Below are positions 9,458 to 28,150 of a stretch of 64,000 nucleotides of DNA, one piece after another. A program made the translations under genes and the position numbers. Position 1 is the first letter of the stretch. Every line of letters starts with the position of its first letter. Source of the stretch: Escherichia phage phiP4. The notes under the pieces were generated by a model. It searched no databases. It saw only the letters and a list, made by a program, of their open reading frames with translations, and was not told the origin of the DNA. Location: sequence record PP993145.1, one strand, 5' to 3'.

Positions 9458-9458
9458 A

Positions 9459-10773: not shown

Positions 10774-10781
10774 TTATTATT

Positions 10782-10857: not shown

Positions 10858-10863
10858 ATTGTT

Positions 10864-10939: not shown

Positions 10940-10948
10940 AGAATGCTA

Positions 10949-11375: not shown

Positions 11376-11400
11376 ATTTTATTTCCTATTTAAGTTAATT

Positions 11401-12130: not shown

Positions 12131-12143
12131 AGTATTTATTATA

Positions 12144-12491
12144 CTAATAGTCACTCGTACTAGTGAAGTTTTCTACTTTTCCACAGATTTTACAAGTCCT
12201 ACGATGATAGTAGGTAATTTTTACTTTAGACCAGCCATCGTGATCATTACCTAGGTTTTCTGTTACTCCCCAAGTATGAGAACACTCATTTTCAATTTGC
12301 TTAGTAAGAGCGTTATAGCGAGTATAAAACTCCTCCTGAGCAATAGCAAATTCTTTCTGTAGTTTATCACGAGCAATAATAGCACGTTCCAGATATGTTA
12401 AATCAGGCATTCCAGCTTTTTCAGCAACATCTATAATCTTATCTTCATCTAAAGATGCTAAAAACTCTAGAGCTTTATCTTTTGTTAGCAT
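12144..12491 (-). CDS. hypothetical protein with C-terminal Zn-ribbon-like motif
   Basis: 115 aa; CSHTWG ... CKICGK. Confidence 0.4.
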   Translation of the reverse strand: MLTKDKALEFLASLDEDKIIDVAEKAGMPDLTYLERAIIARDKLQKEFAIAQEEFYTRYNALTKQIENECSHTWGVTENLGNDHDGWSKVKITYYHRRTCKICGKVENFTSTSDY

Positions 12492-12510
12492 TATTATTAC
12501 CTCAAGTGTT

Positions 12511-12601
12511 TGGCGGAAGAGGAGAGATTTGAACTCTCAAGCCGTTTTACCAGTCAGCCACTTTCCAAGCGGTTTTCGTCACCAATTCGATTTGCTCTTC
12601 C
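12511..12601 (-). tRNA. tRNA-Ser (GGA), type II
   Basis: Acceptor GGAAGAG/CTCTTCC, anticodon region CCGC-TTGGAAA-GTGG resembling E. coli tRNA-Ser GGA, long variable arm, 91 nt. Confidence 0.55.
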
Positions 12602-12611
12602 AATAATAAGA

Positions 12612-12706
12612 TGATGCCTCTATCACACCAGGCAGTTACGCCTCGCTGGGATTCGAACCCATTAAAACAGCTCAACCGAGATAGTAGGTTTAATTTACTC
12701 TGACCA
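12612..12706 (-). ncRNA. tRNA-like element / degenerate tRNA
   Basis: T-arm-like TGGG-TTCGAAT-CCCA at 12646-12662 without an adjacent acceptor stem; distal ends (12612-12618 and 12700-12706) are partly complementary. Confidence 0.25.
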
Positions 12707-12713
12707 TCAAATT

Positions 12714-12790
12714 TGGTGCGTGACAAGGGATTCGAACCCTCAAAACCCGACTTCTAAGGACGGTATGTATGCCAATTCCATCAATCACGC
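12714..12790 (-). tRNA. tRNA, anticodon UAG (Leu-type anticodon, short variable arm)
   Basis: Acceptor GCGTGAT/GTCACGC, T-arm GAGGG-TTCGAAT-CCCTT, anticodon loop CTTAGAA; anticodon stem has one mismatch. Confidence 0.45.
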
Positions 12791-12795
12791 ATATT

Positions 12796-12874
12796 TGGTG
12801 GAGAATAACGGAATCGAACCGTTCTGATGTCCTCGGTGCAAGCGAGGTGTCCACTCCATGCAGACCCATTCCCC
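12796..12874 (-). tRNA. tRNA-Ala (UGC)
   Basis: Acceptor GGGGAAT/ATTCTCC with G3-U70 pair, anticodon arm CCTCG-CTTGCAC-CGAGG. Confidence 0.65.
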
Positions 12875-12887
12875 AAATTCTTTAGTT

Positions 12888-13072
12888 TACTAAGGCTATT
12901 AGCTCGGCGTAACTACAGCACCTTCGCTTCGAGCGGAAGGAACTGCGTCATCTCGCAAACCCAATACACTATTCAGTTGCCGCTGAATCTAGTGGACCAA
13001 TCTAGAACTTCTCCCGAATCAGGGGGATCGTGCTTTTTGGCAGCCAGTCCTAGGTCGAGCTAATACCTTAGT
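12888..13072 (-). ncRNA. structured ORF-free element closed by terminal inverted repeat (candidate small RNA)
   Basis: About 16-nt inverted repeat taaggctattagctcg (12890-12906) / cgagctaatacctta (13055-13070) enclosing a GC-rich stretch with internal hairpins; strand not determined. Confidence 0.3.
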
Positions 13073-13159
13073 GAACTATGATGAGGATTTCTCCTCATCA
13101 ATTTATATAAATATTATAACAAGAAATTAAGCATCAAGCAACTGCGTTTTTTCTTGAAA

Positions 13160-13239
13160 TTGGTAGATCGCCTGGGACTCGAACCCAGAACCTTCCGATT
13201 AAAAGTCGGATGCTACTAAACCTATTGAGCTAGCGATCT
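13160..13239 (-). tRNA. tRNA-Lys (UUU)
   Basis: Acceptor AGATCGC/GCGATCT, anticodon arm TCCGA-CTTTTAA-TCGGA, T-arm CTGGG-TTCGAGT-CCCAG. Confidence 0.7.
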
Positions 13240-13428
13240 ATTAGTAACCATTATACACTTCTTTAATAGAGTGGACTTTTAAGTAAGGGTGATTAGTACT
13301 AAACTCTACCATTACTTCATCCCAATTTTTACCATAATGAGCAAGTAAGGATTTTGATGTATTCTTACCTAATCGTTTATCACTTACTACTAATCGAAAT
13401 ACTTTCATTTCGAAATCCTCTATTAAAA

Positions 13429-13506
13429 TGGAAGCGGGTGCAGGAATCGAACCTACCTCTTTCTAGCTTATGAGACTAGCGATCTCTACCAGAGATCTAA
13501 CCCGCG
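13429..13506 (-). tRNA. tRNA-fMet-like (CAU), initiator-type
   Basis: Anticodon loop CTCATAA; 5' end CGCGGGT with unpaired position 1-72 (C1/U72), the hallmark of bacterial initiator tRNA. Confidence 0.55.
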
Positions 13507-13512
13507 ATTATT

Positions 13513-13588
13513 TGGTCAGTGCGGCAGGACTCGAACCTGCGACCCGAAGCATCCAAGGCTCCCACGCTACCAACTGCGCTACGCACTG
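13513..13588 (-). tRNA. tRNA-Pro (UGG)
   Basis: Acceptor CAGTGCG/CGCACTG, D-arm GCGC-AGTTGGTA-GCGT, anticodon loop CTTGGAT. Confidence 0.65.
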
Positions 13589-13797
13589 TTAATTTTTGTT
13601 AACTCACTTTATAAGATATATTATACAGAGAATTAAGCAGAATAGCAAATGAATTTTTAATAAATTTACTTATTGTGTAGGCCACCTAGAGGCTATGAAC
13701 CCCACGGCTGACAAAGAAGTTTGCGAGACTTCTCTTAAATGCCAGAATAGACCCGCCGATCTATCGGAACCTACATAATAAGTAAACTTTATAGTGT

Positions 13798-13918
13798 CAT
13801 TCTAGACAGGACTCGAACCTGTTATCACTTGTGCGGACTTACGAGAACCATTCTTTCACTCGAATCGAACGAGCTTCTGCCCTCGCCAAGCTGGTTTCCC
13901 CATCAACCACGCTAGAAT
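13798..13918 (-). ncRNA. unusual tRNA-like RNA of about 120 nt (tRNA with large insertion or novel tRNA-like ncRNA)
   Basis: Perfect 7-bp acceptor pairing between 13799-13805 and 13912-13918, perfect T-arm ACAGG-TTCGAGT-CCTGT, D-arm-like TGGT-loop-ACCA, but about 45 extra nt between D-arm and T-arm including a second T-arm-like hairpin. Confidence 0.4.
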
Positions 13919-14040
13919 GTTTGATTGTTTTCAGTGCAAGAGTCCGAGTCTTGGACACGACCGCTTCGCAAGTACATAGGCAGCTTATCATGAGTCAGCA
14001 CTTCCGAATTGCTAGCTCCGTGTTCTGCACTGAAATTTTA

Positions 14041-14388
14041 TTAGTTTAACCGTAAAGTATTATCTACTTCACCATTAATTGTTCGGCATTCTTCTGGGAT
14101 TGCCGGGGTAGCCTTATATTCCCACCACTCAGCACCATCATATTCCCCACGTTCTAACCAAGTTCCATCGGCAAACCATACATTACCATAAAGTAATTGT
14201 CCACCGTATCCAGAATCATATTCAAAGTCTAGGTTATTAAGAAAATCCTCAATATCTTCTTCTGTATAACCTAAAGGTAATACCCAAACTTTTTTATCCC
14301 CATAATACCCGAATTCTATTTTAATACACTTAACTTCAGAATTAGTATTTTTTAAGGCAAGTAACAACTCTTCTTTAGCATTACGCAT
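14041..14388 (-). CDS. hypothetical protein
   Basis: 115-aa ORF. Confidence 0.4.
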   Translation of the reverse strand: MRNAKEELLLALKNTNSEVKCIKIEFGYYGDKKVWVLPLGYTEEDIEDFLNNLDFEYDSGYGGQLLYGNVWFADGTWLERGEYDGAEWWEYKATPAIPEECRTINGEVDNTLRLN

Positions 14389-14413
14389 AATATATTCTCA
14401 TACTGAATTAATT

Positions 14414-14490
14414 TGGCGCGACCGATGGGATTCGAACCCACATTCTCTCCCGTGACAGGGGAGTACCATTACCAAGCCAGCCCCGGTCGC
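14414..14490 (-). tRNA. tRNA-Asp (GUC)
   Basis: Acceptor GCGACCG/CGGTCGC, anticodon arm CTCCC-CTGTCAC-GGGAG. Confidence 0.7.
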
Positions 14491-14499
14491 ATGATCTGT

Positions 14500-14685
14500 T
14501 TATTCAGCTTTGAGTTTTTCAATAGCTGCATTAAGTTCTTTAAGAAACTCTTTTCGTACATTAAGACGATTGAGACTTACTAGTATATCATGTTTAAGTT
14601 CTTCGATGTATTTCTTCTCAACTTCAATATTGTTGATAGTGCTATCACGATGAACTTCTAACTGTGCAATTACATTCTTGGACAT
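14500..14685 (-). CDS. hypothetical coiled-coil protein
   Basis: 61-aa ORF. Confidence 0.35.
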   Translation of the reverse strand: MSKNVIAQLEVHRDSTINNIEVEKKYIEELKHDILVSLNRLNVRKEFLKELNAAIEKLKAE

Positions 14686-14787
14686 GCTTATTTCCTCAGT
14701 TATTAATGAAAATGGTATCTGTGGCTGAATTCGATGTCAGCAATGATAGCTGGTTGGCTACCGGTTTACTTAACTCTACACAGAATT

Positions 14788-14870
14788 TGGCGGGCCGTGT
14801 AGGATTCGAACCTACGTTGTCTTTCGACATGGATTAACAGTCCACCGCCAAACCGCTTGGCTAACGACCC
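14788..14870 (-). tRNA. tRNA-Asn (GUU) with extended variable arm
   Basis: Anticodon arm TGGA-CTGTTAA-TCCA as in E. coli tRNA-Asn; extra GTC-GAAA-GAC hairpin in the variable region; 83 nt. Confidence 0.55.
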
Positions 14871-15022
14871 TAAATTTATATTGCTGACTAGGATTTTCAC
14901 CTAGACGGAGTTAGCACCGTAGCGTGTAGCGGCATACCTCTCCAAACCGTGCCTCATCTTTCAATTACGGAGACAGTGTTCCTACGCGTGCCTGAATTGA
15001 TTTAACAATTCTTTCAGCAAAT

Positions 15023-15098
15023 TGGACGACCGCATGAGATTTGAACTCACATAAAAAGGATTTGCAATCCTTCGCCTAAGCCATTCAGCCAACGGTCG
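15023..15098 (-). tRNA. tRNA-Cys (GCA)
   Basis: Acceptor CGACCGT/GCGGTCG, anticodon arm AAGGA-TTGCAAA-TCCTT. Confidence 0.65.
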
Positions 15099-15165
15099 AT
15101 TTATTATCTTTCATAACGTGCAGCTACATGGTCGGAACCACAACACTTAAATCTAACTAATCGTT

Positions 15166-15408
15166 TCATTTAACACGCTCCGGTAGATCTTCTAGTTTAT
15201 ATTCAGTAGCCACATTAGCAGCATCTAAAAGTAATCCCATGTGTTTAAGGATTTTAGTGATAGATTCGCCTTTGGCTTCTTCTACGAAAGAACGTAGATG
15301 AACAAAGTCAATTCCACCGTCCATACCAGAGAAAATATTTAGTAAGCGAAGCATTACCAGCTTACGTTCATTCAATTCTTGTTCTGTCATGTTGCTTCTC
15401 CAGTTCAA
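15166..15408 (-). CDS. hypothetical protein
   Basis: 80-aa ORF. Confidence 0.35.
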   Translation of the reverse strand: MNWRSNMTEQELNERKLVMLRLLNIFSGMDGGIDFVHLRSFVEEAKGESITKILKHMGLLLDAANVATEYKLEDLPERVK

Positions 15409-15440
15409 TTTATATAATTATTATACAGAACTTTTGGAAA

Positions 15441-15728
15441 CTAAGCAACTACATTTTTTAAGAATTTGATGCCTTTCTTTTTCTTCTTATATTTCCACGT
15501 TAAGGGATTCTGTCGATTATGAACGCTTGAGATCTTCGTCTCGTCAAAGTTCTTCAATATCATGTAATCACAAGATAATTGTTCTAGTGGAATGTGATCA
15601 CCGTCAAAAGCGTATACATAAGGCTGTTGACTAGCACGATAATGATAGACTTTGTTAATTCTACGTTTCAGCGACTTATCCGCGCAGTAAATAAAGAAGT
15701 TTTCAGGATGCATCAGCAGCTCCTTCAA
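15441..15728 (-). CDS. hypothetical protein
   Basis: 95-aa ORF with TTG start. Confidence 0.35.
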   Translation of the reverse strand: MKELLMHPENFFIYCADKSLKRRINKVYHYRASQQPYVYAFDGDHIPLEQLSCDYMILKNFDETKISSVHNRQNPLTWKYKKKKKGIKFLKNVVA

Positions 15729-15730
15729 TT

Positions 15731-15805
15731 TGGTGCACCCTGTTCGTATCGAACGAACCTCTCAAGCTCTTCAGGCAAGCGCTAATCCATCTCAGCTAAA
15801 GGTGC
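15731..15805 (-). tRNA. tRNA-Phe (GAA)
   Basis: Acceptor GCACCTT/AGGGTGC, D-arm GCTG-AGATGGAT-TAGC, T-arm GTTCG-TTCGATA-CGAAC, anticodon loop CTGAAGA; anticodon stem has two U-U mismatches. Confidence 0.45.
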
Positions 15806-15812
15806 AAATTTT

Positions 15813-15888
15813 TGGCAAACCTACTAGGACTCGAACCTAGACCGTACGGTTTTGGAGACCGACATGCTGTCCAGTAACACTCTAGGAA
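15813..15888 (-). tRNA. tRNA-Trp-like (CCA anticodon arm), acceptor not resolved
   Basis: Anticodon arm TCGGT-CTCCAAA-ACCGT matches E. coli tRNA-Trp, T-arm CTAGG-TTCGAGT-CCTAG, but no complementary 5' acceptor strand; 5' bound is a guess. Confidence 0.35.
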
Positions 15889-15897
15889 TGCAGGAAT

Positions 15898-15974
15898 TGG
15901 CGTCCTGTGAGGGGATCGAACCCGCAAATCCTACCTTGAAAGGGTAGTGACTTTACCAGTTTGTCTAACAGGAC
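15898..15974 (-). tRNA. tRNA-Glu (UUC)
   Basis: Acceptor GTCCTGT/ACAGGAC, anticodon arm CTACC-CTTTCAA-GGTAG. Confidence 0.65.
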
Positions 15975-15980
15975 TTAAAT

Positions 15981-16068
15981 TGGTGGGGAAAGATGGAGTC
16001 GAACCACCCGAGTCGCAATGACAACTGATTTACAGTCAGCTCTGCTACCACTTACAGAATATTTCCCC
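15981..16068 (-). tRNA. tRNA-Tyr (GUA), type II
   Basis: Acceptor GGGGAAA/TTTCCCC, anticodon arm GCTGA-CTGTAAA-TCAGT as in E. coli tRNA-Tyr, long variable arm, 88 nt. Confidence 0.65.
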
Positions 16069-16199
16069 ATATTTAGAAGTATTCAAAAAATTCTCATTTA
16101 AACACTTTTAAATATGTTTCCAAATTAGATAAATATTATATCAAGTTTTATAGCACTGAGCAAGTCAAATTTTAAAGAACTTGCTCAGTGCTGTATTAG

Positions 16200-16475
16200 T
16201 TAGTCGAACTTAGGAGTGACAGTTAAGGAGAATGGAAGTTCGAAAACTTCTTCACCCTCATCACTAACAGTAATTACACGACCTTTAAGTTCAGACATTG
16301 AAATATCAATATCAGCTTTTGCATCTGGAGCCATGCCAGCTTCAACACATTTAGCTTTAATTTCCGGTAGAAGTTCTACATCGTAGAAATAAAGCCATTC
16401 AATCTCACCTTCCCAGCCTTCCCAGGATTTACAGATTGCACTTTCAATACCAGCTGCTATAACACGATTTTGCAT
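16200..16475 (-). CDS. hypothetical protein
   Basis: 91-aa ORF. Confidence 0.4.
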   Translation of the reverse strand: MQNRVIAAGIESAICKSWEGWEGEIEWLYFYDVELLPEIKAKCVEAGMAPDAKADIDISMSELKGRVITVSDEGEEVFELPFSLTVTPKFD

Positions 16476-16565
16476 TCGTTAACTCCTCCATCAATTTATA
16501 TAACTATTATACCAGAAATTTAAAGCAAAAGGCAAGTACATTTTTAAAAATTCTGTTTGGAAGAG

Positions 16566-16772
16566 CTAAACTCCAGACTCTTCAGCCAAGTCTAGACTAA
16601 TAAGAGATATAGCCATAATTGCTGCTCCATGTTCTTTTTCTCCAGTTTCTTTAGCTAGAGTTATAATATCAAGAAATTGCTTATGAAAATCTGCAACCTC
16701 TTGAGTTAAACCCGCCTCAGCAATCATACCTTTAAGCATGAAACGTTGTGCGGTAATTTCAGGATTAGCCAT
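16566..16772 (-). CDS. hypothetical protein
   Basis: 68-aa ORF. Confidence 0.35.
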   Translation of the reverse strand: MANPEITAQRFMLKGMIAEAGLTQEVADFHKQFLDIITLAKETGEKEHGAAIMAISLISLDLAEESGV

Positions 16773-16947
16773 GTTGTTTCTCCAGTTTCATCTTTAATAG
16801 TCTACAAATAAAATCAATGTCTTCATCCGTGCCTAGATCTCTATCTTCAAGAGTTGCCTTGAAGTTTTTAGTCAATTCCATGAGAATAACTTCTCTAGAA
16901 CGACGTGTTGGCGGAGGTGGATGTCTATACATCTTATTTCCTTAATT

Positions 16948-17024
16948 TGGTAGGGGTGGTGGGATTCGAACCCACAAAACCTGAATTTTAAGTCCAGTAC
17001 CTATGCCAATTCGATTACACCCCC
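16948..17024 (-). tRNA. tRNA, anticodon UAA (Leu-type anticodon, short variable arm)
   Basis: Acceptor GGGGGTG/CACCCCT, T-arm GTGGG-TTCGAAT-CCCAC, anticodon arm GGAGT... CTGGA-CTTAAAA-TTCAG. Confidence 0.5.
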
Positions 17025-17125
17025 ATGTAATCAGTTTATTAGTTGATACATATTATAGCCTAGTGAAAATCCTACTACTAATCCCACAAACCAACCAATA
17101 TAATAATCTTTTAGTTTCACAGGTA

Positions 17126-17311
17126 TTATCCTCGTTCAATATCTAGGGAAATACCGCAGTTAGGATTAATACCTGTACCATTGCAATTTGCGCAAACCCA
17201 GATATTGCAAAAAGTATCTCCTGCTTCTGCATCAGAACTTTCACCAATTCCCCTACACTCAGGGCAGGCACATTCCTCTAGCTCTTGCTTGAGTTCTTGA
17301 AACTTGGACAT
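17126..17311 (-). CDS. Cys-rich small protein (putative Zn-binding)
   Basis: 61 aa with CACPEC and CANCNGTG clusters. Confidence 0.35.
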   Translation of the reverse strand: MSKFQELKQELEECACPECRGIGESSDAEAGDTFCNIWVCANCNGTGINPNCGISLDIERG

Positions 17312-17319
17312 ATAGTCTC

Positions 17320-17508
17320 CTAGTTAATTACTTTTGAGGCTTCTAAAGCATTGACGTAGTAAACATCTTCTACATTATACATATAGTCTACTACTTTGTC
17401 CATAGCATGGAGTTCAGATGTAGCCTTTACTAGTCTGTACCCTTGCTTAAACTCGTCCGAATGTTCTCTATCTTGTGCAAATTTAACAGAAACTATGAAT
17501 AATTCCAT
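17320..17508 (-). CDS. hypothetical protein
   Basis: 62-aa ORF. Confidence 0.35.
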   Translation of the reverse strand: MELFIVSVKFAQDREHSDEFKQGYRLVKATSELHAMDKVVDYMYNVEDVYYVNALEASKVIN

Positions 17509-17527
17509 TAGTTGTCCTTATTTAATT

Positions 17528-17605
17528 TGGTGGCTCCCCGAGGATTCGAACCTACGTACCTTCCGGTTATGAGCCGGGTGCTCATACCATATGAGCTTGA
17601 GAACC
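17528..17605 (-). tRNA. tRNA, anticodon CAU (Met-type)
   Basis: Acceptor GGTTCTC/GGGAGCC, D-arm GCTC-ATATGGTAT-GAGC, anticodon arm CCGG-CTCATAA-CCGG; T-stem weak. Confidence 0.5.
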
Positions 17606-17611
17606 AAAATC

Positions 17612-17700
17612 TGGCGGAAGAAGTGGGAATCGAACCCACAAGGCTATATTTCAAGCCGACAGATTAGCAATCTGCTGCAATACCGTTATGCTATTCTTCC
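17612..17700 (-). tRNA. tRNA-Ser (GCU), type II
   Basis: Acceptor GGAAGAA/TTCTTCC, anticodon loop TTGCTAA, long variable arm hairpin GGCT...AGCC, 89 nt. Confidence 0.65.
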
Positions 17701-17721
17701 GAATTTATAAGATATATTATA

Positions 17722-18291
17722 TTAGAAATTTAGCTTCATAGCAAGAAAATTTTTCAAGTTTTCGGTAGACATCTCATCCACATCTACAGGAGAAACAAAG
17801 CCGTTTAATTTTCTAGCAAATTTTTCACCTGCAGGGTCATTATCCCCGACAGCTACCAATTTAAAAGGTAATAATTTCAGTTGCTTTAATAACGCTTTTC
17901 CTGGAGAAGAACCCAACATTGCCAGGGCTGGATAACCAGCGTTATGTAACGCAACTGCCTTAAATACAGATTCAGCAATCAATACTACTTTTTCATCTCC
18001 ATTGAGAGTTTCTAGTCCCCATACACACTGGATAGTAGAATAAGTAAAATATTTAGCTTCAAATGGGCACTTACCATGACCTTTTGGAGCAGAAGGATTA
18101 TACGTCTGATAGCCTCTCAACATCCCAGAGAAGTCATACAACGGGACTGTTAGCCATCCTTCCGGACTTAACCAGCAATGATATTTATCTGTATCAAATC
18201 CTCTAGATAAGAGGTGCTGTGTTAGCTCATCAACATTCATATTTGGTTCCTCTCTCAAATTTATAGATATATTATACAGAGAATTTAGCAT
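17722..18291 (-). CDS. Toprim-domain protein (primase-core-like)
   Basis: 189 aa; conserved Glu segment VVLIAESVFKAVAL and DxD segment VAVGDNDPAGE typical of Toprim folds. Confidence 0.45.
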   Translation of the reverse strand: MLNSLYNISINLREEPNMNVDELTQHLLSRGFDTDKYHCWLSPEGWLTVPLYDFSGMLRGYQTYNPSAPKGHGKCPFEAKYFTYSTIQCVWGLETLNGDEKVVLIAESVFKAVALHNAGYPALAMLGSSPGKALLKQLKLLPFKLVAVGDNDPAGEKFARKLNGFVSPVDVDEMSTENLKNFLAMKLNF

Positions 18292-18409
18292 TCAAGCAAT
18301 CAAATTTTTTAACTTTTTAGAGGAAAATCATATGGCACTTAAGGGTAGCAGATAAGTGGTGAGGACCAAAATTTGTGACCCCACTAAAAATCCGGGGGTA
18401 ATTTTTAAA

Positions 18410-18450
18410 GACCCCTTGACATTTTCTCGGGGGTAGTGTAAAGTATACGT
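18410..18450 (+). promoter_or_regulatory. sigma70-type promoter
   Basis: TTGACA (18416-18421), 17-bp spacer, TAAAGT (18439-18444), upstream of the plus-strand three-gene unit. Confidence 0.5.
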
Positions 18451-18506
18451 TATGGATGAGTGATCAAAGAGACACACATTTTCTATATACTAGGAGGTGT
18501 CAAAAA

Positions 18507-19493
18507 ATGACAGAAGAAGTAGCTAAGAGTCCTGAGACCGTCGCTAGCGTTGCAGCAGAACTGCACCGTCACGAGGAATCGGATAAGAAAAAGTGGGAGA
18601 AGGTCAGAGCCTACGAAGAGAAACATCGCGAACACGACGATGAAGAAGATGACGATGATGAACATTGTCATAAATATGGAAAACATAAAATGCAAGAACC
18701 AGTAAACGTATTCACTAGTGGCTTCCCTGGCCTACTGGGTGGTTACCCAGCAAACGCAGGTGCTTTCGGTGGTGAAGGTATGGGACTATTCGGAGCTATC
18801 CTAATCGGTGCTCTATTAACAGGCGGATTCGGTGGTTTCGGTGGATTCGGTGGACGTGGTGTAGTTGGTGATGGTACCGCAGTTGATGCAGTACTTCAGA
18901 ACCAAGATACCGCTAGTATTCTAGCAGCTATTAACACTACTCGTACAGAAGCTAACCAGGGTACTGGAGCTGTTTTAAGCGCAGTTAACAATGGTTTTAG
19001 CCAGACATCCCAAAACCAGAGCCGTGATACTCAGTCTGTACTAACTACGATCTATGGTACAGGTGCTAATCTGTCTAATCAGATCTGCCAGGAAACTCGC
19101 AACGTTATTCAGGGTCAGTTCGATCTTTCTCGCCAGATTGATCAATCTTTCGCAGCTAACCAGATAGCTCGTGCACAAGATAAGTTTGATTCTGCACAGA
19201 TCGCTTTCCAGCAGACTTTACAAACTAATAACCAGTTTGCCGCTGTTCAGGCTCAGATGTGTGCTAACCAGAACTCTCTGGAACGTCAGATCGCTGAATG
19301 TTGCTGTGAACTTCAGACTGCGATCGCTGGTGTAACTACTGCGCGTATCCAGGATGAGTTAGACGCATGTCGCCTACGTGAAGCAATCGCTGCTGGTAGC
19401 GGTGCTAACGGTCAGGTAATTAATCAAATCGCTTTAAGTCTTGGTGCTATCACTCAGACTCTGGCTGGTCTGCAGGCTAAACTGCCGGCTTAA
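18507..19493 (+). CDS. Gly-rich membrane protein with Gln/Asn-rich C-terminal region
   Basis: Start ATG after AGGAGG; charged N-terminus, glycine-zipper TM (GLFGAILIGALLTGGFGGFGGFGG), long Q/N/A/T-rich domain; host-like codon usage. Confidence 0.6.
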   Translation: MTEEVAKSPETVASVAAELHRHEESDKKKWEKVRAYEEKHREHDDEEDDDDEHCHKYGKHKMQEPVNVFTSGFPGLLGGYPANAGAFGGEGMGLFGAILIGALLTGGFGGFGGFGGRGVVGDGTAVDAVLQNQDTASILAAINTTRTEANQGTGAVLSAVNNGFSQTSQNQSRDTQSVLTTIYGTGANLSNQICQETRNVIQGQFDLSRQIDQSFAANQIARAQDKFDSAQIAFQQTLQTNNQFAAVQAQMCANQNSLERQIAECCCELQTAIAGVTTARIQDELDACRLREAIAAGSGANGQVINQIALSLGAITQTLAGLQAKLPA

Positions 19494-19514
19494 TATTAAG
19501 GGGAGGAGCCCATT

Positions 19515-19919
19515 ATGAGTAAATATGGTTTTGTAAATAACGGACTTAATCAAAGTATGGGCTCCCAGCAGCCCATGCCGGGTCTGGATAACCCCTACTT
19601 ACAACAGTTGCAACAGCGTTTAGCAGAAGCGCAACAGATGCAGCAACAACTCCAGCAAAACCCTGGAAGTGTGAGTCCTATGCAAATGATGCAGCAAATG
19701 AGCGGGCAGTCGCAAATGCCTCAACAAATGCAGCAACAGGTGCCGCAGCAGCAAACCCAACAACCGCAGGTTTCTGCGGAAGGACAGGCAGTACTAGCCC
19801 TTTTCGAAGACTTCGCAAAGACAGAGGATGGGAAACAGCTTGTATCACTTATGGGTAAGTTTAATAGCTTCTGCCAAAGCCAAGTTGCAAAAGCTCAAAA
19901 TGGTGGTAATAACTCCTAA
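19515..19919 (+). CDS. Gln-rich low-complexity protein
   Basis: 134 aa, MQQ/QQL repeats; strong RBS GGGGAGGAG. Confidence 0.5.
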   Translation: MSKYGFVNNGLNQSMGSQQPMPGLDNPYLQQLQQRLAEAQQMQQQLQQNPGSVSPMQMMQQMSGQSQMPQQMQQQVPQQQTQQPQVSAEGQAVLALFEDFAKTEDGKQLVSLMGKFNSFCQSQVAKAQNGGNNS

Positions 19920-19928
19920 GGAGGAATT

Positions 19929-20123
19929 ATGTGTTGCAGAAAATCTGTTTCGTGCTGCCCAATGCCTGTAACACGTTGTTGCTCTCCAGCAATGTTTACG
20001 CAAATACCGGCGTTCAATCCGTTTGCCTTTAAACCTATTCTTATCCTGCCCCCTAGAGTAGATTTTCAGTCAAGATTGGCCTCCCGTATGGGTGGTTGCT
20101 GTACACCGAGAGTGTGGTTCTAA
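19929..20123 (+). CDS. small Cys-rich protein
   Basis: 64 aa with CC pairs (MCCRK..CC..CC..GGCC); RBS AAGGAGG. Confidence 0.45.
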   Translation: MCCRKSVSCCPMPVTRCCSPAMFTQIPAFNPFAFKPILILPPRVDFQSRLASRMGGCCTPRVWF

Positions 20124-20137
20124 ACCAAAAAACAAAA

Positions 20138-20170
20138 GCCCCTGCCGAAAGGTAAGGGGCTTTTTCTTTT
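20138..20170 (+). terminator. rho-independent terminator (plus-strand unit)
   Basis: Hairpin gcccct-gccgaaaggta-aggggc followed by TTTTTCTTTT. Confidence 0.65.
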
Positions 20171-20184
20171 GCCTTAAATACAGA

Positions 20185-20220
20185 AAAGCCCGCGCTCTCG
20201 GAGGAAACGCGGGCTTGGTT
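20185..20220 (-). terminator. rho-independent terminator (SPFH gene)
   Basis: Hairpin agcccgcg...cgcgggct with T-run on minus strand, downstream of 20240..21187. Confidence 0.6.
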
Positions 20221-20239
20221 CGAAGATTACGTGTAACTA

Positions 20240-21187
20240 TTACTTGTTACGCATATCCATGATCATTTGACCATCGTAGCCAGTACCTACCACAGTCTGA
20301 GGCACACCACCTTGATACTTCTGAGCACGAATCATTTCAACTTCCAGTTGCTTCCAGCGAATCATCTCAGGAGTAATGGTACGTTGCAATGCGGCGTTAG
20401 CTTCAGCTTCTTTTTTAGCTGCGTACAGTTTAGCATCTGCGTCACGTTCGTTAGCAATAGCCTGGTTATTACGGGCTTCACGGTCTGCTTCTGCCTGTTT
20501 AACTTTTTGCTGTGCTTCTTGTTCAACACGAGCCAACTCAGCTTTTGCAGCATTAACTTGCTCTTCACGAACTTTGGTATTCTGTACCTGTTCCATGATT
20601 ACTGGTGGCAGAGTAATATCCTGAAGGAATACCTGCTTAACTGTGTAACCATATGGGCGTGCATACTCTTCAACTTCTTGTTGAATTGCAGTTTGCAATT
20701 GAGCCTGAATTTTAGCATCAAACAAATCTTGTGCTTTAGGTACAGACTTACCAAACTCACGAATAGTAGACAGTAATTTTTCAGTTACATATTTGTCTAA
20801 CGCTTGATCCTGAGTACCCGCATTAATACGGTTAATCGGTGCCTTAGAACCATCAAACTGCAACATAACAGTCAGGTCAACAGTGGATTTAAACTTATCC
20901 TGGCTAGGAACCTGAAGTTTATCTAATTTTACAGCAATATCTTTTGTACTAAAAGTATCGAAAGATGCAAATGGGTTTACAAGATGGAAACCCGGTAATA
21001 CTGGGTTAGGATCTACTTTACCCAGAAATGTTTGGGTTTTAACCGTACCATCAGAAACAATAGTATATGAATTAAAGGCTAGAATCAAGCCTGCTAAACC
21101 AACTACAGCACCAATACCCCAACGTTTAATAGTACGAATTACTTTCTGCTCAGAAGTCAGTTCTTTCATATTTTTAGTATTAAACAT
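20240..21187 (-). CDS. SPFH/band-7 (stomatin-prohibitin-HflK/C-like) membrane protein
   Basis: 315 aa; N-terminal TM helix, SPFH-like core, C-terminal coiled coil rich in A/E/Q/K/R (AEADREARNNQAIANERDADAKL). Confidence 0.65.
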   Translation of the reverse strand: MFNTKNMKELTSEQKVIRTIKRWGIGAVVGLAGLILAFNSYTIVSDGTVKTQTFLGKVDPNPVLPGFHLVNPFASFDTFSTKDIAVKLDKLQVPSQDKFKSTVDLTVMLQFDGSKAPINRINAGTQDQALDKYVTEKLLSTIREFGKSVPKAQDLFDAKIQAQLQTAIQQEVEEYARPYGYTVKQVFLQDITLPPVIMEQVQNTKVREEQVNAAKAELARVEQEAQQKVKQAEADREARNNQAIANERDADAKLYAAKKEAEANAALQRTITPEMIRWKQLEVEMIRAQKYQGGVPQTVVGTGYDGQMIMDMRNK

Positions 21188-21221
21188 ATATTTCCTTTGT
21201 TTTAGTTACAGTTAATAAAAT

Positions 21222-21296
21222 TGGCCGAGGTGACAGGATTCGAACCTGCATAAAGGAATTTAGAAGACTCCTGCCTCTCCCTTAGACTACACCCCG
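21222..21296 (-). tRNA. tRNA-Arg (UCU)
   Basis: Acceptor CGGGGTG/CACCTCG, T-arm GCAGG-TTCGAAT-CCTGT, anticodon arm GGAGT-CTTCTAA-ATTCC. Confidence 0.6.
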
Positions 21297-23576: not shown

Positions 23577-24018
23577 AATAGCCTCGTTTCATCAATTTAA
23601 AAATATATTATACAGATAACTTAGTAAATTAGCAAATACATTTTTAAATTGTGAAACTAGTAAACCGATAAACAGCCTAGAGGCGCCACAGGCCATATCT
23701 TATGAGCCATGTACCTTTGATCTAGGGTTTGAATCATCAACGAATACTTTGCATCTTTTAGCTTTAGAAGTTTAGAAGTTTGAGTTCTTTAAACTTTTCA
23801 GCTTTCATACTTAAATGTTGATCTTTGAAGTTGTGTCGGTAATATCAACGACGCTTTGTTTTTACGTGTCAGATTAAATGTCTGATGTAATAAACATAAT
23901 CTCCAATAGATTATACTTTATAGTATGGTCAGCGGTCTTATTTAACCTCGTATTTCAACCGCTGCTGCGAGGTAAGATGCTTGGGCTTTCGTCTACCGAT
24001 TTACTAGCTTTTAAATTA

Positions 24019-24657
24019 TTACTCTACTTCAATGAAGGTAGAGGCGTTAGACTCGGACAGAACAAAGTCAACATTTGTTGCAAAGTCCTGGTATTCCTCG
24101 TCATGCTGCTTAATCAGCTTCTCCAGTTCCAGCGGATCAATCAAGAATGGAGTATTCTTGAGTTCCAGCAGATTGAGCTGCATTTTAACTTCATCTTCGG
24201 AAGTTTTCTTATCGCGGGTAGCCATGCTATCCTGCAAACGCTCATATTTAGCATCAAACTGTGCTTTCTGCGTATTAAACTTAACCGTAGCGGCATGGAA
24301 CTGCTTACGCATGTTAGCCAGCAGTTGAGCTTTAAGCTCCATAGAACGCTTAGCTTCAATTGCTTCCGCAACAGTCATTTTACGAGAACCGATCTCAACG
24401 ATTGTTTCTGCATTGCTCTTAATCAGAGCAGACTTGATACGATCACGCTGAGACATCATATCCAGCAGAGATTGGAAATCAGTCTTAATACGAGTAGACA
24501 GGTCATCTACTTCGATTGCAGCTCCAACTACAACCTGGTTTTTATCCTTACCTTCACCAACAGCAATCAGAAGCTGCTGTTCAGTAGCTTTACGGATTTT
24601 AGCTTCCAGAGATTTGATAGTTGCCAGAGCGCGAGTTTTAGAGATACGAGTAGTCAT
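24019..24657 (-). CDS. hypothetical protein, probably highly expressed
   Basis: 212 aa; strongly E. coli-optimal codons (ctg, cgt, ggt, aaa, gaa); antisense ORF 23878..24690 judged spurious. Confidence 0.55.
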   Translation of the reverse strand: MTTRISKTRALATIKSLEAKIRKATEQQLLIAVGEGKDKNQVVVGAAIEVDDLSTRIKTDFQSLLDMMSQRDRIKSALIKSNAETIVEIGSRKMTVAEAIEAKRSMELKAQLLANMRKQFHAATVKFNTQKAQFDAKYERLQDSMATRDKKTSEDEVKMQLNLLELKNTPFLIDPLELEKLIKQHDEEYQDFATNVDFVLSESNASTFIEVE

Positions 24658-24710
24658 TATTTGCTTCCTTATATGAAGTTTGAGATTTGAATTTATTTAA
24701 AGTTGGTCTA

Positions 24711-24975: not shown

Positions 24976-25677
24976 TCAAATTTTCATTTTTTCGATCATA
25001 GCTGCAACACAATAGCTCTCAACTAAGGCATCGAATGCTGGATCATGCTTAACTGGATAGATTCCATAACGAATAGTGTCCATTTTCTCCATTTTAGCGG
25101 TTGCCCAGCTAATACCTTCAGCCTCTAGCTCTTTGTAACTATATCCAGCTTGCATCCAGAGATTACGAAGAGATCGAACATTGCCCAAATTCCAGAATTT
25201 CCACGGAACTACCTCTTCATTGGTTCCAGCATGGAAAGTGTTTGCAGAGTAGATAGTCATATCAAACTCTGGGCCATTGCCATAATACAAAGCATTATCG
25301 CCTAGAGCCAACTCCATAATATTTTGAGCCATAGAGTAGGCAGCATAGTTAGAGCCGAGTTTATTAGTACAATGATGTTTACCGTTTTGGAATGCAATCA
25401 GCTTTGGATTACGCTCGTTCATAGCTTGCATAATGTGGATAGCAGACGGGCTGTCTTTAGCTTGATCCATCCAGAATGCTAGAGTAGATGCTGTAACTTT
25501 AGCACCAGAGTTAAGCTGATCTTGTACATCCAAAGTAACAAATACTAGATCAGGGTCTTTATCAATTCCATGCATAGCCACAAAAGCGAAAGAAGGCATT
25601 GCGATATGAGTAGTACCACAATCTCCTGGAGTTCCTAGAGATTCAATATCTAGCATACCAAATGGTTTTACTTTCAT
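24976..25677 (-). CDS. DEDD-type 3'-5' exonuclease-like protein
   Basis: 233 aa; N-terminal DxE motif MLDIESLG and C-terminal HDPAFD (H-x4-D) motif. Confidence 0.45.
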   Translation of the reverse strand: MKVKPFGMLDIESLGTPGDCGTTHIAMPSFAFVAMHGIDKDPDLVFVTLDVQDQLNSGAKVTASTLAFWMDQAKDSPSAIHIMQAMNERNPKLIAFQNGKHHCTNKLGSNYAAYSMAQNIMELALGDNALYYGNGPEFDMTIYSANTFHAGTNEEVVPWKFWNLGNVRSLRNLWMQAGYSYKELEAEGISWATAKMEKMDTIRYGIYPVKHDPAFDALVESYCVAAMIEKMKI

Positions 25678-25705
25678 AACTTATCCTTTATTGTGTAGAA
25701 AACTA

Positions 25706-25942
25706 TTAAAGAGCTGTCTCTTTAATAGACTCCCACTTCTTGGGGTCTTTAAAACCAGGAAGCATATCCTCACTGACATCCCAGTTCTCTTCCATAGAGA
25801 AGTCGGGCCATTCATTCCAGCTACCTTCCAGCTCTTCATAACAGGTGTCCATTACCTCATGACTAGAAAGTCGTGTATAATCCCTAGCTGACTTATGGGT
25901 GCTAGCACGGTTAAAATCATTCTTTGCCACAAAATTACGCAT
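25706..25942 (-). CDS. hypothetical acidic protein
   Basis: 78-aa ORF. Confidence 0.4.
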   Translation of the reverse strand: MRNFVAKNDFNRASTHKSARDYTRLSSHEVMDTCYEELEGSWNEWPDFSMEENWDVSEDMLPGFKDPKKWESIKETAL

Positions 25943-25983
25943 AGTTTCTCCAAATAAGAGGGGCTTTCGCCCCCTGATTTAAA

Positions 25984-26262: not shown

Positions 26263-26778
26263 TTACTTCGCTTTACGCTTGCTAGCTGGTTTAGCAGATT
26301 TACGAGCAGAATCACCCGTGAACTTAATGCCTACACCGTAACACAGAGCGCGAACGTTATCTTTACTATACTCTACGCCAAAGATATTTGGCTTAACAGA
26401 ACCAAACTGTCCACGAGCATCACGTAGTACGTCTGCCGTTGGTTTACGCTTCTGGTTAACTGCTTTCTCATAGTCTTTCATAGCCATACCATTACGAGAG
26501 AACAATTCAGCCCCAGCGTTGAAGCTCAGGGAAACTGGGGCAGATTTGTGGCCGTAATTTTCTACATACATAACCATTTTGTAGGATTTACGGGTGGCAT
26601 TTTTAGCTTTAGGCTTCTGACGAATCGGAGCCGGATTATTCAGTGCTTGTGCAGCCTGAGCATCGGTAGGATGCTTACGCAGGTGGCGTTCCAGACGAGC
26701 TTTGCGATTAGCTTCGGTCTGCGGGAAAGTTTTAACTGCCGGAGCTGCTTGAGTTTTTGCGTTTTTCTGTTTAGCCAT
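26263..26778 (-). CDS. basic protein, probably highly expressed
   Basis: 171 aa, Lys/Arg/Ala-rich termini, host-optimal codons. Confidence 0.5.
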   Translation of the reverse strand: MAKQKNAKTQAAPAVKTFPQTEANRKARLERHLRKHPTDAQAAQALNNPAPIRQKPKAKNATRKSYKMVMYVENYGHKSAPVSLSFNAGAELFSRNGMAMKDYEKAVNQKRKPTADVLRDARGQFGSVKPNIFGVEYSKDNVRALCYGVGIKFTGDSARKSAKPASKRKAK

Positions 26779-26853
26779 TATTTGTTTTCCTTTTTGTTTA
26801 TCAATTTATGAAGTATATTATACGAGAATTTGAAGCGTTTAGCAAATGAATTT

Positions 26854-27303
26854 TTAATTTATTAACTGTAAGCTTCTTTTAATTTCAGACCTTACCTGCA
26901 TCAAAAGAACTCCTAAAGTATTATCCCCGATGCCTCGGCAAACACCCCAATATGTATCTCCCCAGGTATTTCCTTCGATCAAAGTTGCATTTTTTGTTGC
27001 TAACAGTTTGTCTCTCAAATCAGGGATTGCAAACTTTAACCGTAAAAGCTCTAGCATTACATCATCTTTTACCTTATCCCAGTCAGAGCGCAGAGTTAAT
27101 TTACGTCCTCTACGTTTGGCAACACCTGCATTTAGGGAGCGCAGTACATGAGCTACATCATCTTTTTGGTCGGATTTCATAGCCTGAAAAGCGTGTTCTA
27201 CAGTATCAGCATGCCATATTTCATTTAGATATTCGAAAGTAATTGGTGATAAATAAAAGTTTGATAAGAAACTATAAGCACCTTTAAATTCAGTAATCTT
27301 CAT
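26854..27303 (-). CDS. NADAR-domain protein (YbiA-like)
   Basis: 149 aa; FLSNFY ... EHAFQAMK ... WGVCRGIGDNTLGVLLM segments as in the NADAR/YbiA family. Confidence 0.7.
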   Translation of the reverse strand: MKITEFKGAYSFLSNFYLSPITFEYLNEIWHADTVEHAFQAMKSDQKDDVAHVLRSLNAGVAKRRGRKLTLRSDWDKVKDDVMLELLRLKFAIPDLRDKLLATKNATLIEGNTWGDTYWGVCRGIGDNTLGVLLMQVRSEIKRSLQLIN

Positions 27304-27661: not shown

Positions 27662-28150
27662 TCACATCTCAGCCATTTCAGCTTCAGTAATAACTGTATT
27701 ACATAAGGCATCTACAGCTTCATTACCACTAATACCAGAATGTCCTTTAACCTTAATAAAGGTAGGGTTAGTATTATGAAAGTTGATATACTGCTGTGTT
27801 AATTTAAATGCTTCCTGCCAAAGTTCTAGATTAAGAGGAACTTCACCATCTGCTTTCTTCCAGCCTTTCCTTTGCCAAGAAAACATCCAACTTTCCATGC
27901 CATTTTTGCAATAAGCAGAGTCAGTATAGATAGCAATTGGTCTATTATCTTTTTTAACAGACCAACGTAGAGCTTCTACAATAGCTGTGAGTTCCATCTC
28001 ATTATTTGTAGTTTTAGGACTATAACCAGATTTAGAGCCTAAACGATCGTCGTTATCATCATAGACAATAAAACCCCAAGCACCTGGACCCGGGTTAGCC
28101 TTACAAGCACCATCTGTGTAAATGTGGAAAACCGACATTATACCTCCCAA
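27662..28150 (-). CDS. rnhA: ribonuclease H
   Basis: 162 aa; N-terminal YTDGACKANPGPGAWG as in RNase HI. Confidence 0.8.
   Translation of the reverse strand: MGGIMSVFHIYTDGACKANPGPGAWGFIVYDDNDDRLGSKSGYSPKTTNNEMELTAIVEALRWSVKKDNRPIAIYTDSAYCKNGMESWMFSWQRKGWKKADGEVPLNLELWQEAFKLTQQYINFHNTNPTFIKVKGHSGISGNEAVDALCNTVITEAEMAEM

What the first reader, a model, noticed from the sequence alone, without database searches (positions are those of the whole stretch)
24976..25677. DEDD-like exonuclease among early genes
The DxE (MLDIESLG) and H-x4-D (HDPAFD) motifs suggest a DnaQ-like 3'-5' exonuclease separate from the polymerase proofreading domain. It could be an RNase T/oligoribonuclease-like or anti-defence nuclease (for example degrading cyclic or linear signalling nucleotides).
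Basis: partly seen in the sequence, partly recalled or inferred. Interest (0 to 1): 0.4.

Follow-up and report, generated by a model that had tools for sequence, protein, structure and literature searches.

The report
DexA-like 3'-5' exonuclease of T5-like phage
This early gene of a T5-like phage encodes a stand-alone 3'-to-5' nuclease that is a distant relative of phage T4 exonuclease A (DexA); it is widely mislabelled "metallopeptidase" in databases, and is a real but ordinary member of a known enzyme family.

Summary
Window 24976..25677 (minus strand) is a 233-aa ORF with its own Shine-Dalgarno sequence. It carries MLDIESLG (residues 8-15) and HDPAFD (211-216).

The motifs are not chance:
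- D10, E12, D139, H211 and D216, a full DEDDh set, are invariant in homologs down to 23% identity.
- Pfam places the protein in PF16473 (Rv2179c-like), above the curated cut-off.
- It hits PHROG 255 "exonuclease" at 2e-52.
- A family profile aligns to DexA at 98.9% probability, with all five catalytic residues in register.

The window is a T5-like phage, and the gene is the ortholog of T5p085/T5.087. The common "metallopeptidase" label comes from a chance, non-conserved match to a carboxypeptidase signature.

The gene lies in the early P-H207 operon, downstream of nrdAB-dhfr-thyA-RNase H. It is near-universal in enterobacterial T5-like phages. It scored "Not Fit" (dispensable) in a published T5 knock-down screen.

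The substrate (DNA or RNA) is not settled, and I found no evidence for an anti-defence role. The upstream 78-aa ORF is fused to the exonuclease in some relatives, which is a minor new lead.

Verdict: an uncharacterised member of a known kind, of low interest.

The parts
24976..25677 (-). CDS of the 233-aa DEDDh 3'-5' exonuclease (ortholog of T5p085 / T5.087), stop codon included
25633..25656 (-). Exo I motif MLDIESLG (D10, E12: metal-binding carboxylates)
   Evidence: D10 and E12 are invariant in A1 (28 sequences) and A2 (31 sequences). They align to DexA D7/E9. Coordinates checked.
25249..25281 (-). Exo II motif GNGPEFDMTIY (D139)
   Evidence: F138 and D139 are invariant in A1 and A2. G133 and N134 are invariant only in the close set A1. 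They align to DexA ...SFD(119)F.... Coordinates checked.
25024..25050 (-). Exo III motif KHDPAFDAL (H211 general base, D216), the 'h' type of DEDD
   Evidence: H211 and D216 are invariant. They align to DexA H186/D191, which PMC12153337 lists as catalytic. Coordinates checked.
25201..25233 (-). HAGTNEEVVPW: chance match to the zinc-carboxypeptidase signature-2 pattern, the source of the 'metallopeptidase' mislabel. Not a functional element.
   Evidence: Regex match, shuffle frequency 0.001 per protein, and His149 conserved in only 14 of 28 homologs. The T5 note reads 'contains peptidase M14/carboxypeptidase A motif'.
25684..25688 (-). Shine-Dalgarno AAGGA, 6 nt upstream of the ATG; an in-frame TAA lies at 25681-25683
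   Evidence: Read directly from the sequence.
25706..25942 (-). Upstream 78-aa ORF (T5p086 / T5.088 ortholog). It has a basic, highly conserved N-terminal peptide MRNFVAKNDFNRASTHKSARDYTR (DUF7230-like) and an acidic tail. It is fused to the exonuclease as an N-terminal domain in some relatives.
   Evidence: The fusions P0015, P0020, P0021, P0023 and P0024 align to it. The PHROG 255 profile covers both modules. The syntenic gene in a Klebsiella T5-like phage is a 334-aa fusion. DUF7230 scores below threshold, E=2.8e-4.
26817..26845 (-). Operon promoter TTGCTA-17-TATAAT, identical to the T5 promoter annotated 'P-H 207'
   Evidence: Promoter scan. 96% identity overall, and 100% across the promoter, in the alignment with the T5 P-H 207 region.
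26263..26778 (-). First gene of the same operon: DUF7022 protein (T5p087 / T5.089 ortholog)
   Evidence: Pfam PF22887 at 253.7 bits. Conserved upstream of the exonuclease in L001, L002 and L006.

Best explanation
The ORF encodes a stand-alone, metal-dependent DEDDh 3'-to-5' exonuclease of the Rv2179c-like/DexA family (PF16473, PHROG 255). It is the T5-lineage counterpart of phage T4 exonuclease A.

Inferred mechanism, from the family: D10, E12, D139 and D216 hold two divalent cations. H211 activates the attacking water. The enzyme removes nucleoside 5'-monophosphates one at a time from free 3' ends of single-stranded nucleic acid.

I take the most likely substrate to be single-stranded DNA: 3' tails and oligonucleotides produced during phage DNA replication and recombination, or left from breakdown of host DNA. 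That would make it a dispensable accessory enzyme of DNA metabolism, expressed early from promoter P-H207 together with a DUF7022 protein and a small DUF7230-like protein. The small protein is fused to the nuclease in some relatives, so it probably acts with it.

Shown here: fold, family, an intact catalytic pentad, operon context, conservation, and dispensability of the T5 ortholog. Inferred: catalytic activity, DNA preference, physiological role, and any partnership with the small ORF.

The confidence of 0.6 is for the whole statement. It is about 0.9 for the enzyme class and about 0.5 for DNA over RNA as the substrate.
For: Family and catalytic site:
- Pfam PF16473 above the gathering score; PHROG 255 'exonuclease' at 2e-52.
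- T4 dexA belongs to the same PHROG 255 (PMC11879866, supplement 8) and the same Pfam family at 79.9 bits.
- All five DEDDh residues are invariant down to 23% identity.
- The AF2 model has pLDDT 90.9 and pTM 0.90.
- hhalign of the family profile against DexA gives 98.9% probability and E=1.4e-17, with the catalytic residues in register.
- BFVD matches include phage proteins named 'DexA exonuclease A' and 'exodeoxyribonuclease'.

Context:
- The block nrdA-nrdB-dhfr-thyA-RNase H-...-DUF7022-small ORF-exonuclease is conserved in T5, HK6, a Klebsiella T5-like phage and a metagenomic phage at 38% identity.
- About 437 phage records carry the exonuclease at 80% identity or more, against 443 that carry the polymerase at 80% or more.

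Dispensability:
- T5.087 is 'Not Fit' in CRISPRi-ART, as is T4 dexA. This fits DexA's known non-essential status.
Against: - No biochemistry exists for this protein or any close relative.
- The founding member of the Pfam family, Rv2179c, is an exoribonuclease (PMC10534295), and Foldseek's best solved match is RNase T. An RNA substrate is therefore a real possibility.
- Pairwise BLAST to DexA is not significant; the relationship shows only at profile and structure level.
- DexA's best-known role, salvaging host DNA for nucleotides, fits T5 poorly. T5 is reported to dephosphorylate and excrete host-derived nucleotides and to synthesise its own de novo (bioRxiv 10.64898/2026.04.02.716235).
- The Pfam HMM alignment stops at residue 180 and does not cover Exo III.
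Confidence: 0.6

Rival explanations
1. It is an exoribonuclease like Rv2179c or RNase T. It trims 3' trailers of the phage's many tRNA precursors, or degrades RNA primers or mRNA fragments.
For: - The Pfam family is named for the exoribonuclease Rv2179c, reported to attack 3' single-stranded overhangs of dsRNA (PMC10534295).
- Foldseek's best solved hits are RNase T structures, E about 6e-5.
- 22 tRNA genes lie downstream on the same strand. All encode CCA followed by A/T-rich trailers that need 3' exonucleolytic trimming.
- An RNase H gene lies about 2 kb upstream, in the same gene block.
Against: - The gene is 3.7 kb from the nearest tRNA gene, with other genes and promoters in between.
- PF16473 homologs occur in many smaller phage genomes (45-68 kb, e.g. 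Salmonella phage 9NA, Pseudomonas LKO4, Rhodobacter phages), so the family is not confined to T5-like phages. I did not check those genomes for tRNA genes.
- Host RNases already perform this trimming, which is established E. coli biology.
- Knock-down has no fitness effect.
Confidence: 0.25
2. It is an anti-defence nuclease. It would destroy an immune nucleic-acid signal or component: cyclic or linear oligonucleotide messengers, retron msDNA or other defence-made ssDNA. Or it would offset dNTP-depletion defences by releasing dNMPs.
For: - It is dispensable on a laboratory host, as accessory counter-defence genes usually are.
- Its neighbours include a NADAR gene, and the adjacent tRNA region is described as an anti-defence island containing Rad (bioRxiv 10.1101/2023.03.15.532788).
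- Structural neighbours include Orn/REXO2 (dinucleotidase) and CBASS Cap18.
- T4 DexA becomes essential when the host dGTPase is over-produced (optA1) (PMC12153337).
Against: - No direct evidence of any kind.
- The gene was not among the anti-retron determinants mapped in the T5 family. Rad is a different protein of 189 aa with a TOPRIM domain.
- It sits at a fixed position in a replication/nucleotide-metabolism operon across divergent phages rather than in a variable island.
- The similarity to Orn and Cap18 is no greater than to any other DEDDh enzyme.
Confidence: 0.1
3. It is a zinc metallopeptidase of the M14 carboxypeptidase type, as most GenBank records say.
For: - The T5 record notes a 'peptidase M14/carboxypeptidase A motif'.
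- Residues 149-159, HAGTNEEVVPW, fit the carboxypeptidase zinc signature-2 pattern.
Against: - No Pfam M14 hit, even with E up to 10 allowed.
- Signature 1, HExxH and HxxE are all absent.
- The motif's His is conserved in only 14 of 28 homologs, and the pattern is lost already at 61% identity.
Confidence: 0.01

Closest known systems
Phage T4 exonuclease A (DexA; PDB 8kel; PF16473; PHROG 255)
   Different: Only about 17% identity, and pairwise BLAST is not significant. The T5 clade has its own insertions relative to compact family members: a beta-hairpin around residues 92-106 and a helix around 181-204. T5 DNA is not reported to carry 5hmC, so DexA's discrimination of 5hmC DNA and its role in intron homing (PMC12153337) have no obvious counterpart. 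T5 is reported not to recycle host nucleotides. The T5 clade is linked to a DUF7230-like module that is unrelated to T4 dexA.1 and dexA.2. Oligomeric state not tested.
Mycobacterium tuberculosis Rv2179c (PDB 4hec), founder of PF16473
   Different: Rv2179c is a compact protein (155 residues in the solved chain) and is reported to be an exoribonuclease. No sequence-level hit to it appeared in PDB searches with the protein or with its profile. The Pfam alignment covers only residues 8-180.
E. coli RNase T / oligoribonuclease (DEDDh, Pfam RNase_T PF00929)
   Different: No PF00929 hit. 11-14% identity. TM-scores are only about 0.45-0.52. RNase T's dimer and basic nucleotide-binding segments were not examined.

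Membership tests
DEDDh (DnaQ-like) 3'-5' exonuclease superfamily | Exo I motif D-x-E | tested here: met
   D10 and E12 in MLDIESLG are invariant in 28 and in 31 homologs.
DEDDh (DnaQ-like) 3'-5' exonuclease superfamily | Exo II motif with a conserved Asp (N-x2-3-[FY]-D) | tested here: met
   In GNGPEFD, F138 and D139 are invariant. They align to DexA D119.
DEDDh (DnaQ-like) 3'-5' exonuclease superfamily | Exo III motif H-x4-D (the 'h' subtype) | tested here: met
   H211 and D216 are invariant. They align to DexA H186/D191.
DEDDh (DnaQ-like) 3'-5' exonuclease superfamily | RNase H-like alpha/beta fold | tested here: met
DEDDh (DnaQ-like) 3'-5' exonuclease superfamily | Metal-dependent 3'-5' exonuclease activity | not testable with these tools
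   Needs a biochemical assay.
Pfam PF16473 Rv2179c-like / PHROG 255 (includes T4 DexA) | Score above the curated Pfam gathering threshold | tested here: met
   34.3 bits against 27. The alignment covers residues 8-180 only. T4 DexA scores 79.9 bits.
Pfam PF16473 Rv2179c-like / PHROG 255 (includes T4 DexA) | Membership of the same remote-homology cluster as DexA | tested here: met
   PHROG 255 at 2e-52. T4 dexA is listed as phrog_255 in PMC11879866, supplement 8.
T4 DexA (functional equivalence) | Significant direct sequence similarity | tested here: inconclusive
   BLASTP E=0.21, but profile against sequence gives 98.9% probability and E=1.4e-17.
T4 DexA (functional equivalence) | ssDNA/dsDNA 3'-5' exonuclease activity; needed on optA1 hosts; dimer-tetramer switch (S87/D90) | not testable with these tools
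   Properties taken from PMC12153337.
M14 zinc carboxypeptidase ('metallopeptidase' annotation) | Match to the family profile (Pfam Peptidase_M14) | tested here: not met
   No hit with E up to 10 allowed.
M14 zinc carboxypeptidase ('metallopeptidase' annotation) | Zinc ligands: H-x-x-E (signature 1) plus a distal His (signature 2), conserved | tested here: not met
   Signature 1 and HxxE are absent. The signature-2-like match at 149-159 is not conserved: His in 14 of 28 homologs. The patterns were recalled from memory.
Pfam RNase_T (PF00929: RNase T, Orn, the epsilon subunit) | Match to the family profile | tested here: not met
   No hit for the window protein. The similarity is structural only.
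Rad (retron anti-defence) of T5-family phages | 189-aa protein with a TOPRIM/primase-like domain, in the tRNA region | tested here: not met
   Description in bioRxiv 10.1101/2023.03.15.532788. The exonuclease is 233 aa with a DEDDh fold. A different window ORF (17722-18291) fits Rad.

The most novel reading that the evidence does not exclude
The exonuclease and the upstream 78-aa ORF could form a two-part system. The small protein's N-terminal peptide (MRNFVAKNDFNRA.THKS..DY.R) is extremely conserved and is predicted to be disordered. It could tether or regulate the nuclease on a specific host or phage target. It is fused to the nuclease in Klebsiella T5-like phages. It also occurs free next to NAD-salvage genes in unrelated phages. 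In this reading the pair serves as a counter-defence or nucleotide-supply device, for example against dNTP-depleting or ssDNA-producing immune systems, rather than as a housekeeping nuclease.
Probability: 0.12. Interest if true: 0.55.

Novelty: new member of a known kind. Interest (0 to 1): 0.2.

Why it matters
The main value is corrective. Hundreds of T5-like phage genomes, many proposed for therapy or biocontrol, label this gene "metallopeptidase" because of a chance motif match made in the 2005 T5 annotation. It should read "DEDDh 3'-5' exonuclease, DexA/Rv2179c-like".

It also shows that T5, a model phage reported not to recycle host nucleotides, still keeps a DexA-type exonuclease in its nucleotide-metabolism/replication operon. 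That makes it a clean system for asking what DexA-like enzymes do apart from host-DNA salvage and 5hmC discrimination.

The fused or adjacent DUF7230-like peptide is a small new lead. None of this is surprising to a specialist.

Tried and rejected
- **PDB sequence searches.** phmmer with the protein and hmmsearch with its profile gave only chance hits: designed armadillo repeats and PCNA. The link to solved structures needed fold comparison.
- **NCBIfam and PADLOC.** No hits for the exonuclease.
- **Rad.** I checked whether the gene is Rad, the T5-family anti-retron protein. It is not: Rad is 189 aa with a TOPRIM domain.
- **Recoding to a fusion.** I asked whether the window makes a fused protein, as some relatives do, by recoding. 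That would need a +1 frameshift and read-through of a TAA, and the exonuclease has its own SD and ATG. The weak linker-like similarity in the exonuclease frame ('FNSFLHNKG*') may be an artefact of the A/G-rich sequence. Rejected as unlikely.
- **Small ORF against ArfA.** hhalign probability 0.08%. Rejected.
- **Small ORF against T7 gp1.1.** gp1.1 is PF08200, not DUF7230, and only 'MRNF' is shared. Rejected.
- **Small ORF against T4 dexA.1 and dexA.2.** No alignment. Rejected.
- **DUF7230 always next to an exonuclease?** No. In three other phage contexts it lies next to NAPRTase/PRPP-synthetase genes or DUF7022.
- **Nucleotide-level element?** The strong conservation of the N-terminal peptide is not due to a DNA or RNA element: 13 synonymous against 5 non-synonymous codon changes between the window and a Klebsiella phage.
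- **Literature.** Searches for T5p085, T5.087 and related names found nothing. The OLD-sentinel preprint does not mention the gene.
- **Not obtainable.** The Rv2179c founding paper (PMC3900960) is not held. AF2 coordinates are not exposed, so metal-site geometry was not measured.

Full report
**Observation.** Window 24976..25677 holds a 233-aa ORF on the minus strand, running from ATG to TGA. An AAGGA Shine-Dalgarno sequence lies 6 nt upstream of the ATG. An in-frame TAA sits just before it. MLDIESLG is residues 8-15 and HDPAFD is residues 211-216. So the described feature is there, at the stated coordinates.

**Is it more than chance?** Yes, on four counts.
- Pfam gives a single hit: PF16473, the Rv2179c-like 3'-5' exoribonuclease domain. 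E is 2.4e-8, with 34.3 bits against a gathering score of 27, over residues 8-180.
- PHROGs gives phrog_255 'exonuclease' at 2e-52.
- In 28 homologs at 36-89% identity, D10, E12, D139, H211 and D216 are invariant.
- After adding compact members of 170-200 aa found by an exhaustive HMMER scan of 1.84 billion representatives, identity falls to 23%. The only invariant columns are then those five residues plus W69, F138 and R168.

**Structure.** AlphaFold2 on the 28-sequence alignment gives pLDDT 90.9 and pTM 0.90.
- Foldseek against the PDB ranks RNase T structures first (E about 6e-5, TM about 0.45-0.52), then 3'hExo and a TREX1 homolog.
- Next come 3'hExo (13.7), CBASS Cap18 (13.3), RNase T (13.3), REXO2 (13.3), the Pol III epsilon subunit (12.8) and Rv2179c (4hec, 11.8).
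- BFVD returns phage proteins named DexA exonuclease A, exodeoxyribonuclease and Rv2179c-like.
- Sequence-only searches of the PDB found nothing real.

**Link to DexA.**
- T4 DexA, taken from NC_000866, is itself a PF16473 member at 79.9 bits.
- It is listed as phrog_255 in the annotation table of PMC11879866.
- Pairwise BLAST to the window protein is not significant.
- The 31-sequence profile, however, aligns to DexA at 98.9% probability, E=1.4e-17, over 182 columns.
- In that alignment D10/E12, D139, H211 and D216 sit on DexA D7/E9, D119, H186 and D191.
- PMC12153337 names the catalytic motif as 'D7, E12, D119, D191, and H186'. The second residue differs from my alignment, which places E9 there.

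**Genome and annotation.** The window is a T5-like phage (Tequintavirus). It is 98% identical over 3.5 kb to phages slur09 and HK6, and the protein is 100% identical to HK6's and 95% identical to T5p085.

Public labels are split between 'metallopeptidase', 'exonuclease', '3' exoribonuclease' and 'hypothetical'. The T5 record explains the first label: 'contains peptidase M14/carboxypeptidase A motif'.
- Residues 149-159 (HAGTNEEVVPW) fit the carboxypeptidase zinc signature-2 pattern, which I recalled from memory.
- Signature 1, HExxH and HxxE are absent.
- The His is present in only 14 of 28 homologs, and the pattern is already lost at 61% identity.
- Shuffled sequences of the same composition match at a rate of 0.001.
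- Pfam M14 gives no hit.

The peptidase label is a propagated false positive.

**Context.** On the minus strand the order is:
- PhoH, nrdA, nrdB, dhfr and thyA;
- RNase H (27662-28150);
- a 94-aa ORF;
- a NADAR gene (26854-27303);
- the promoter;
- DUF7022 (26263-26778);
- a 71-aa ORF;
- the 78-aa ORF (25706-25942);
- the exonuclease;
- further small genes, then 22 tRNA genes at 9209-21296.

The promoter-like site at 26845-26817 lies in a stretch identical to the T5 promoter annotated 'P-H 207'. My recollection that P-H207 is an early T5 promoter is from memory. The position, between the ribonucleotide reductase genes and the tRNA region, is in T5's early region.

The same block, including DUF7022, the small ORF and the exonuclease, recurs in T5, HK6, a Klebsiella T5-like phage and a metagenomic phage whose exonuclease is only 38% identical.

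About 437 phage records carry the exonuclease at 80% identity or more, against 443 that carry the polymerase at 80% or more. All 82 Klebsiella T5-like records have it. Vibrio T5-like phages have at most a very distant version.

The window also encodes other nucleases:
- the polymerase's own PF01612 proofreading domain;
- the D15-type flap endonuclease;
- an Mre11/Rad50-like pair.

So this is a separate, additional nuclease.

**Function.** Experimental information comes only from relatives and from one screen.
- In CRISPRi-ART, T5.087 (702 nt, 'metallopeptidase') is 'Not Fit'. So are T5.088 (the small ORF) and T4 dexA. T5.089 (DUF7022) is 'Fit'.
- DexA is a non-essential 3'-5' DNA exonuclease. 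It is used for host-DNA scavenging, becoming essential on optA1 hosts, and for intron homing (PMC12153337).
- Rv2179c is reported to be an exoribonuclease that acts on 3' overhangs (PMC10534295).
- T5 is reported to convert host-derived nucleotides to nucleosides via Dmp, excrete them, and make its own nucleotides de novo (bioRxiv 10.64898/2026.04.02.716235).

Putting this together, I commit to a Mg-dependent DEDDh 3'-5' exonuclease that acts on single-stranded 3' ends. The substrate is most probably DNA, and the enzyme serves as a dispensable accessory of phage DNA metabolism. My confidence is about 0.9 for the enzyme class and about 0.5 for DNA over RNA.

The RNA rival, tRNA 3' trimming, is mechanistically possible. 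All 22 tRNA genes encode CCA followed by A/T-rich trailers. But proximity is its only support.

The anti-defence rival has no specific support. The T5-family anti-retron protein Rad is a different protein.

**The small upstream ORF.** Five relatives of 324-334 aa carry an N-terminal extension that is 52-73% identical to the window's separate 78-aa ORF. The PHROG 255 profile spans both modules.
- The small protein has a basic N-terminal part (residues 1-26, pI 10.9; conserved peptide MRNFVAKNDFNRASTHKSARDYTR) and an acidic remainder (residues 27-78, pI 4.1).
- The peptide is nearly invariant across phages whose exonucleases are less than 40% identical.
- The constraint is on the protein: 13 synonymous against 5 non-synonymous codon changes between the window and a Klebsiella phage.
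- In the AF2 model of a fused relative, residues 1-24 have pLDDT below 50 while the nuclease domain is confident. This is typical of a short linear interaction motif.
- It matches Pfam DUF7230, below threshold in the window protein.
- Similar tiny proteins occur elsewhere without an adjacent exonuclease.

Its role is unknown. The fusion suggests it acts with the nuclease.

**Verdict.** The anti-defence idea is unsupported. This is an uncharacterised member of a known family, already classified correctly by Pfam and PHROGs and mislabelled in most GenBank records. Interest is low.

Noticed in passing
window 25706-25942 (minus): A 78-aa ORF (T5p086/T5.088 ortholog). Its N-terminal peptide MRNFVAKNDFNRASTHKSARDYTR (DUF7230-like) is nearly invariant and under protein-level selection, and it is predicted to be disordered. 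An acidic tail follows. The ORF is fused to the exonuclease in Klebsiella T5-like phages and some metagenomic phages. It occurs free next to NAPRTase/PRPP-synthetase genes or DUF7022 in other phages. Function unknown.
   Followed up: yes
window 26854-27303 (minus): A NADAR-domain gene (Pfam 78.9 bits), annotated 'swarming motility protein YbiA' or 'GTP cyclohydrolase II' in relatives. It is present here and in HK6 and slur09 but absent from this position in T5. From memory, NADAR proteins reverse ADP-ribosylation of guanine in DNA, so this may be a counter-defence accessory gene.
   Followed up: partly
window 17722-18291 (minus): A 189-aa ORF with a Toprim_2 domain inside the tRNA cluster. Its size, domain and location match Rad, the retron anti-defence protein described for T5-family phages (bioRxiv 10.1101/2023.03.15.532788).
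   Followed up: partly
window 26263-26778 (minus): A DUF7022 protein, the first gene of the P-H207 operon. Its T5 ortholog T5.089 scored 'Fit' in the CRISPRi-ART screen, although nothing is known about its function. A DUF7022 gene also lies next to a DUF7230 mini-protein in an unrelated contig (L009).
   Followed up: partly
window 23878-24690 (+) versus 24019-24657 (minus): Conflicting gene calls in public records. T5 st0 (AY692264) annotates a 798-nt ORF on the opposite strand (T5p083). HK6 and the T5 annotation used in PMC11879866 (T5.085) annotate a 639-nt ORF on the same strand as the exonuclease. The minus-strand ORF hits PHROG 1491 at 1.4e-81. That PHROG's label, 'tail fiber protein', is implausible for a gene in the early region.
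   Followed up: partly
window 9209-21296 (minus): All 22 tRNA genes encode their 3' CCA and are followed by A/T-rich trailers (typically AATT.. or ATTT..). The precursors therefore need 3' exonucleolytic trimming rather than CCA addition.
   Followed up: yes
window 25703-25728 and 25959-25974 (minus): Two hairpins. One is an 11-bp A/T-rich stem that overlaps the stop codon of the 78-aa ORF, just upstream of the exonuclease Shine-Dalgarno sequence. The other is a G+C-rich terminator-like hairpin between the 71-aa ORF and the 78-aa ORF. They may modulate expression within the operon. The scan's counts were only about 1.9 sd above the shuffled mean (7 against 3.4).
   Followed up: no
window 20240-21187 (minus): A 315-aa SPFH/Band-7 domain protein, annotated 'lipoprotein' in HK6, just upstream of tRNA-Arg within the variable tRNA region.
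   Followed up: no
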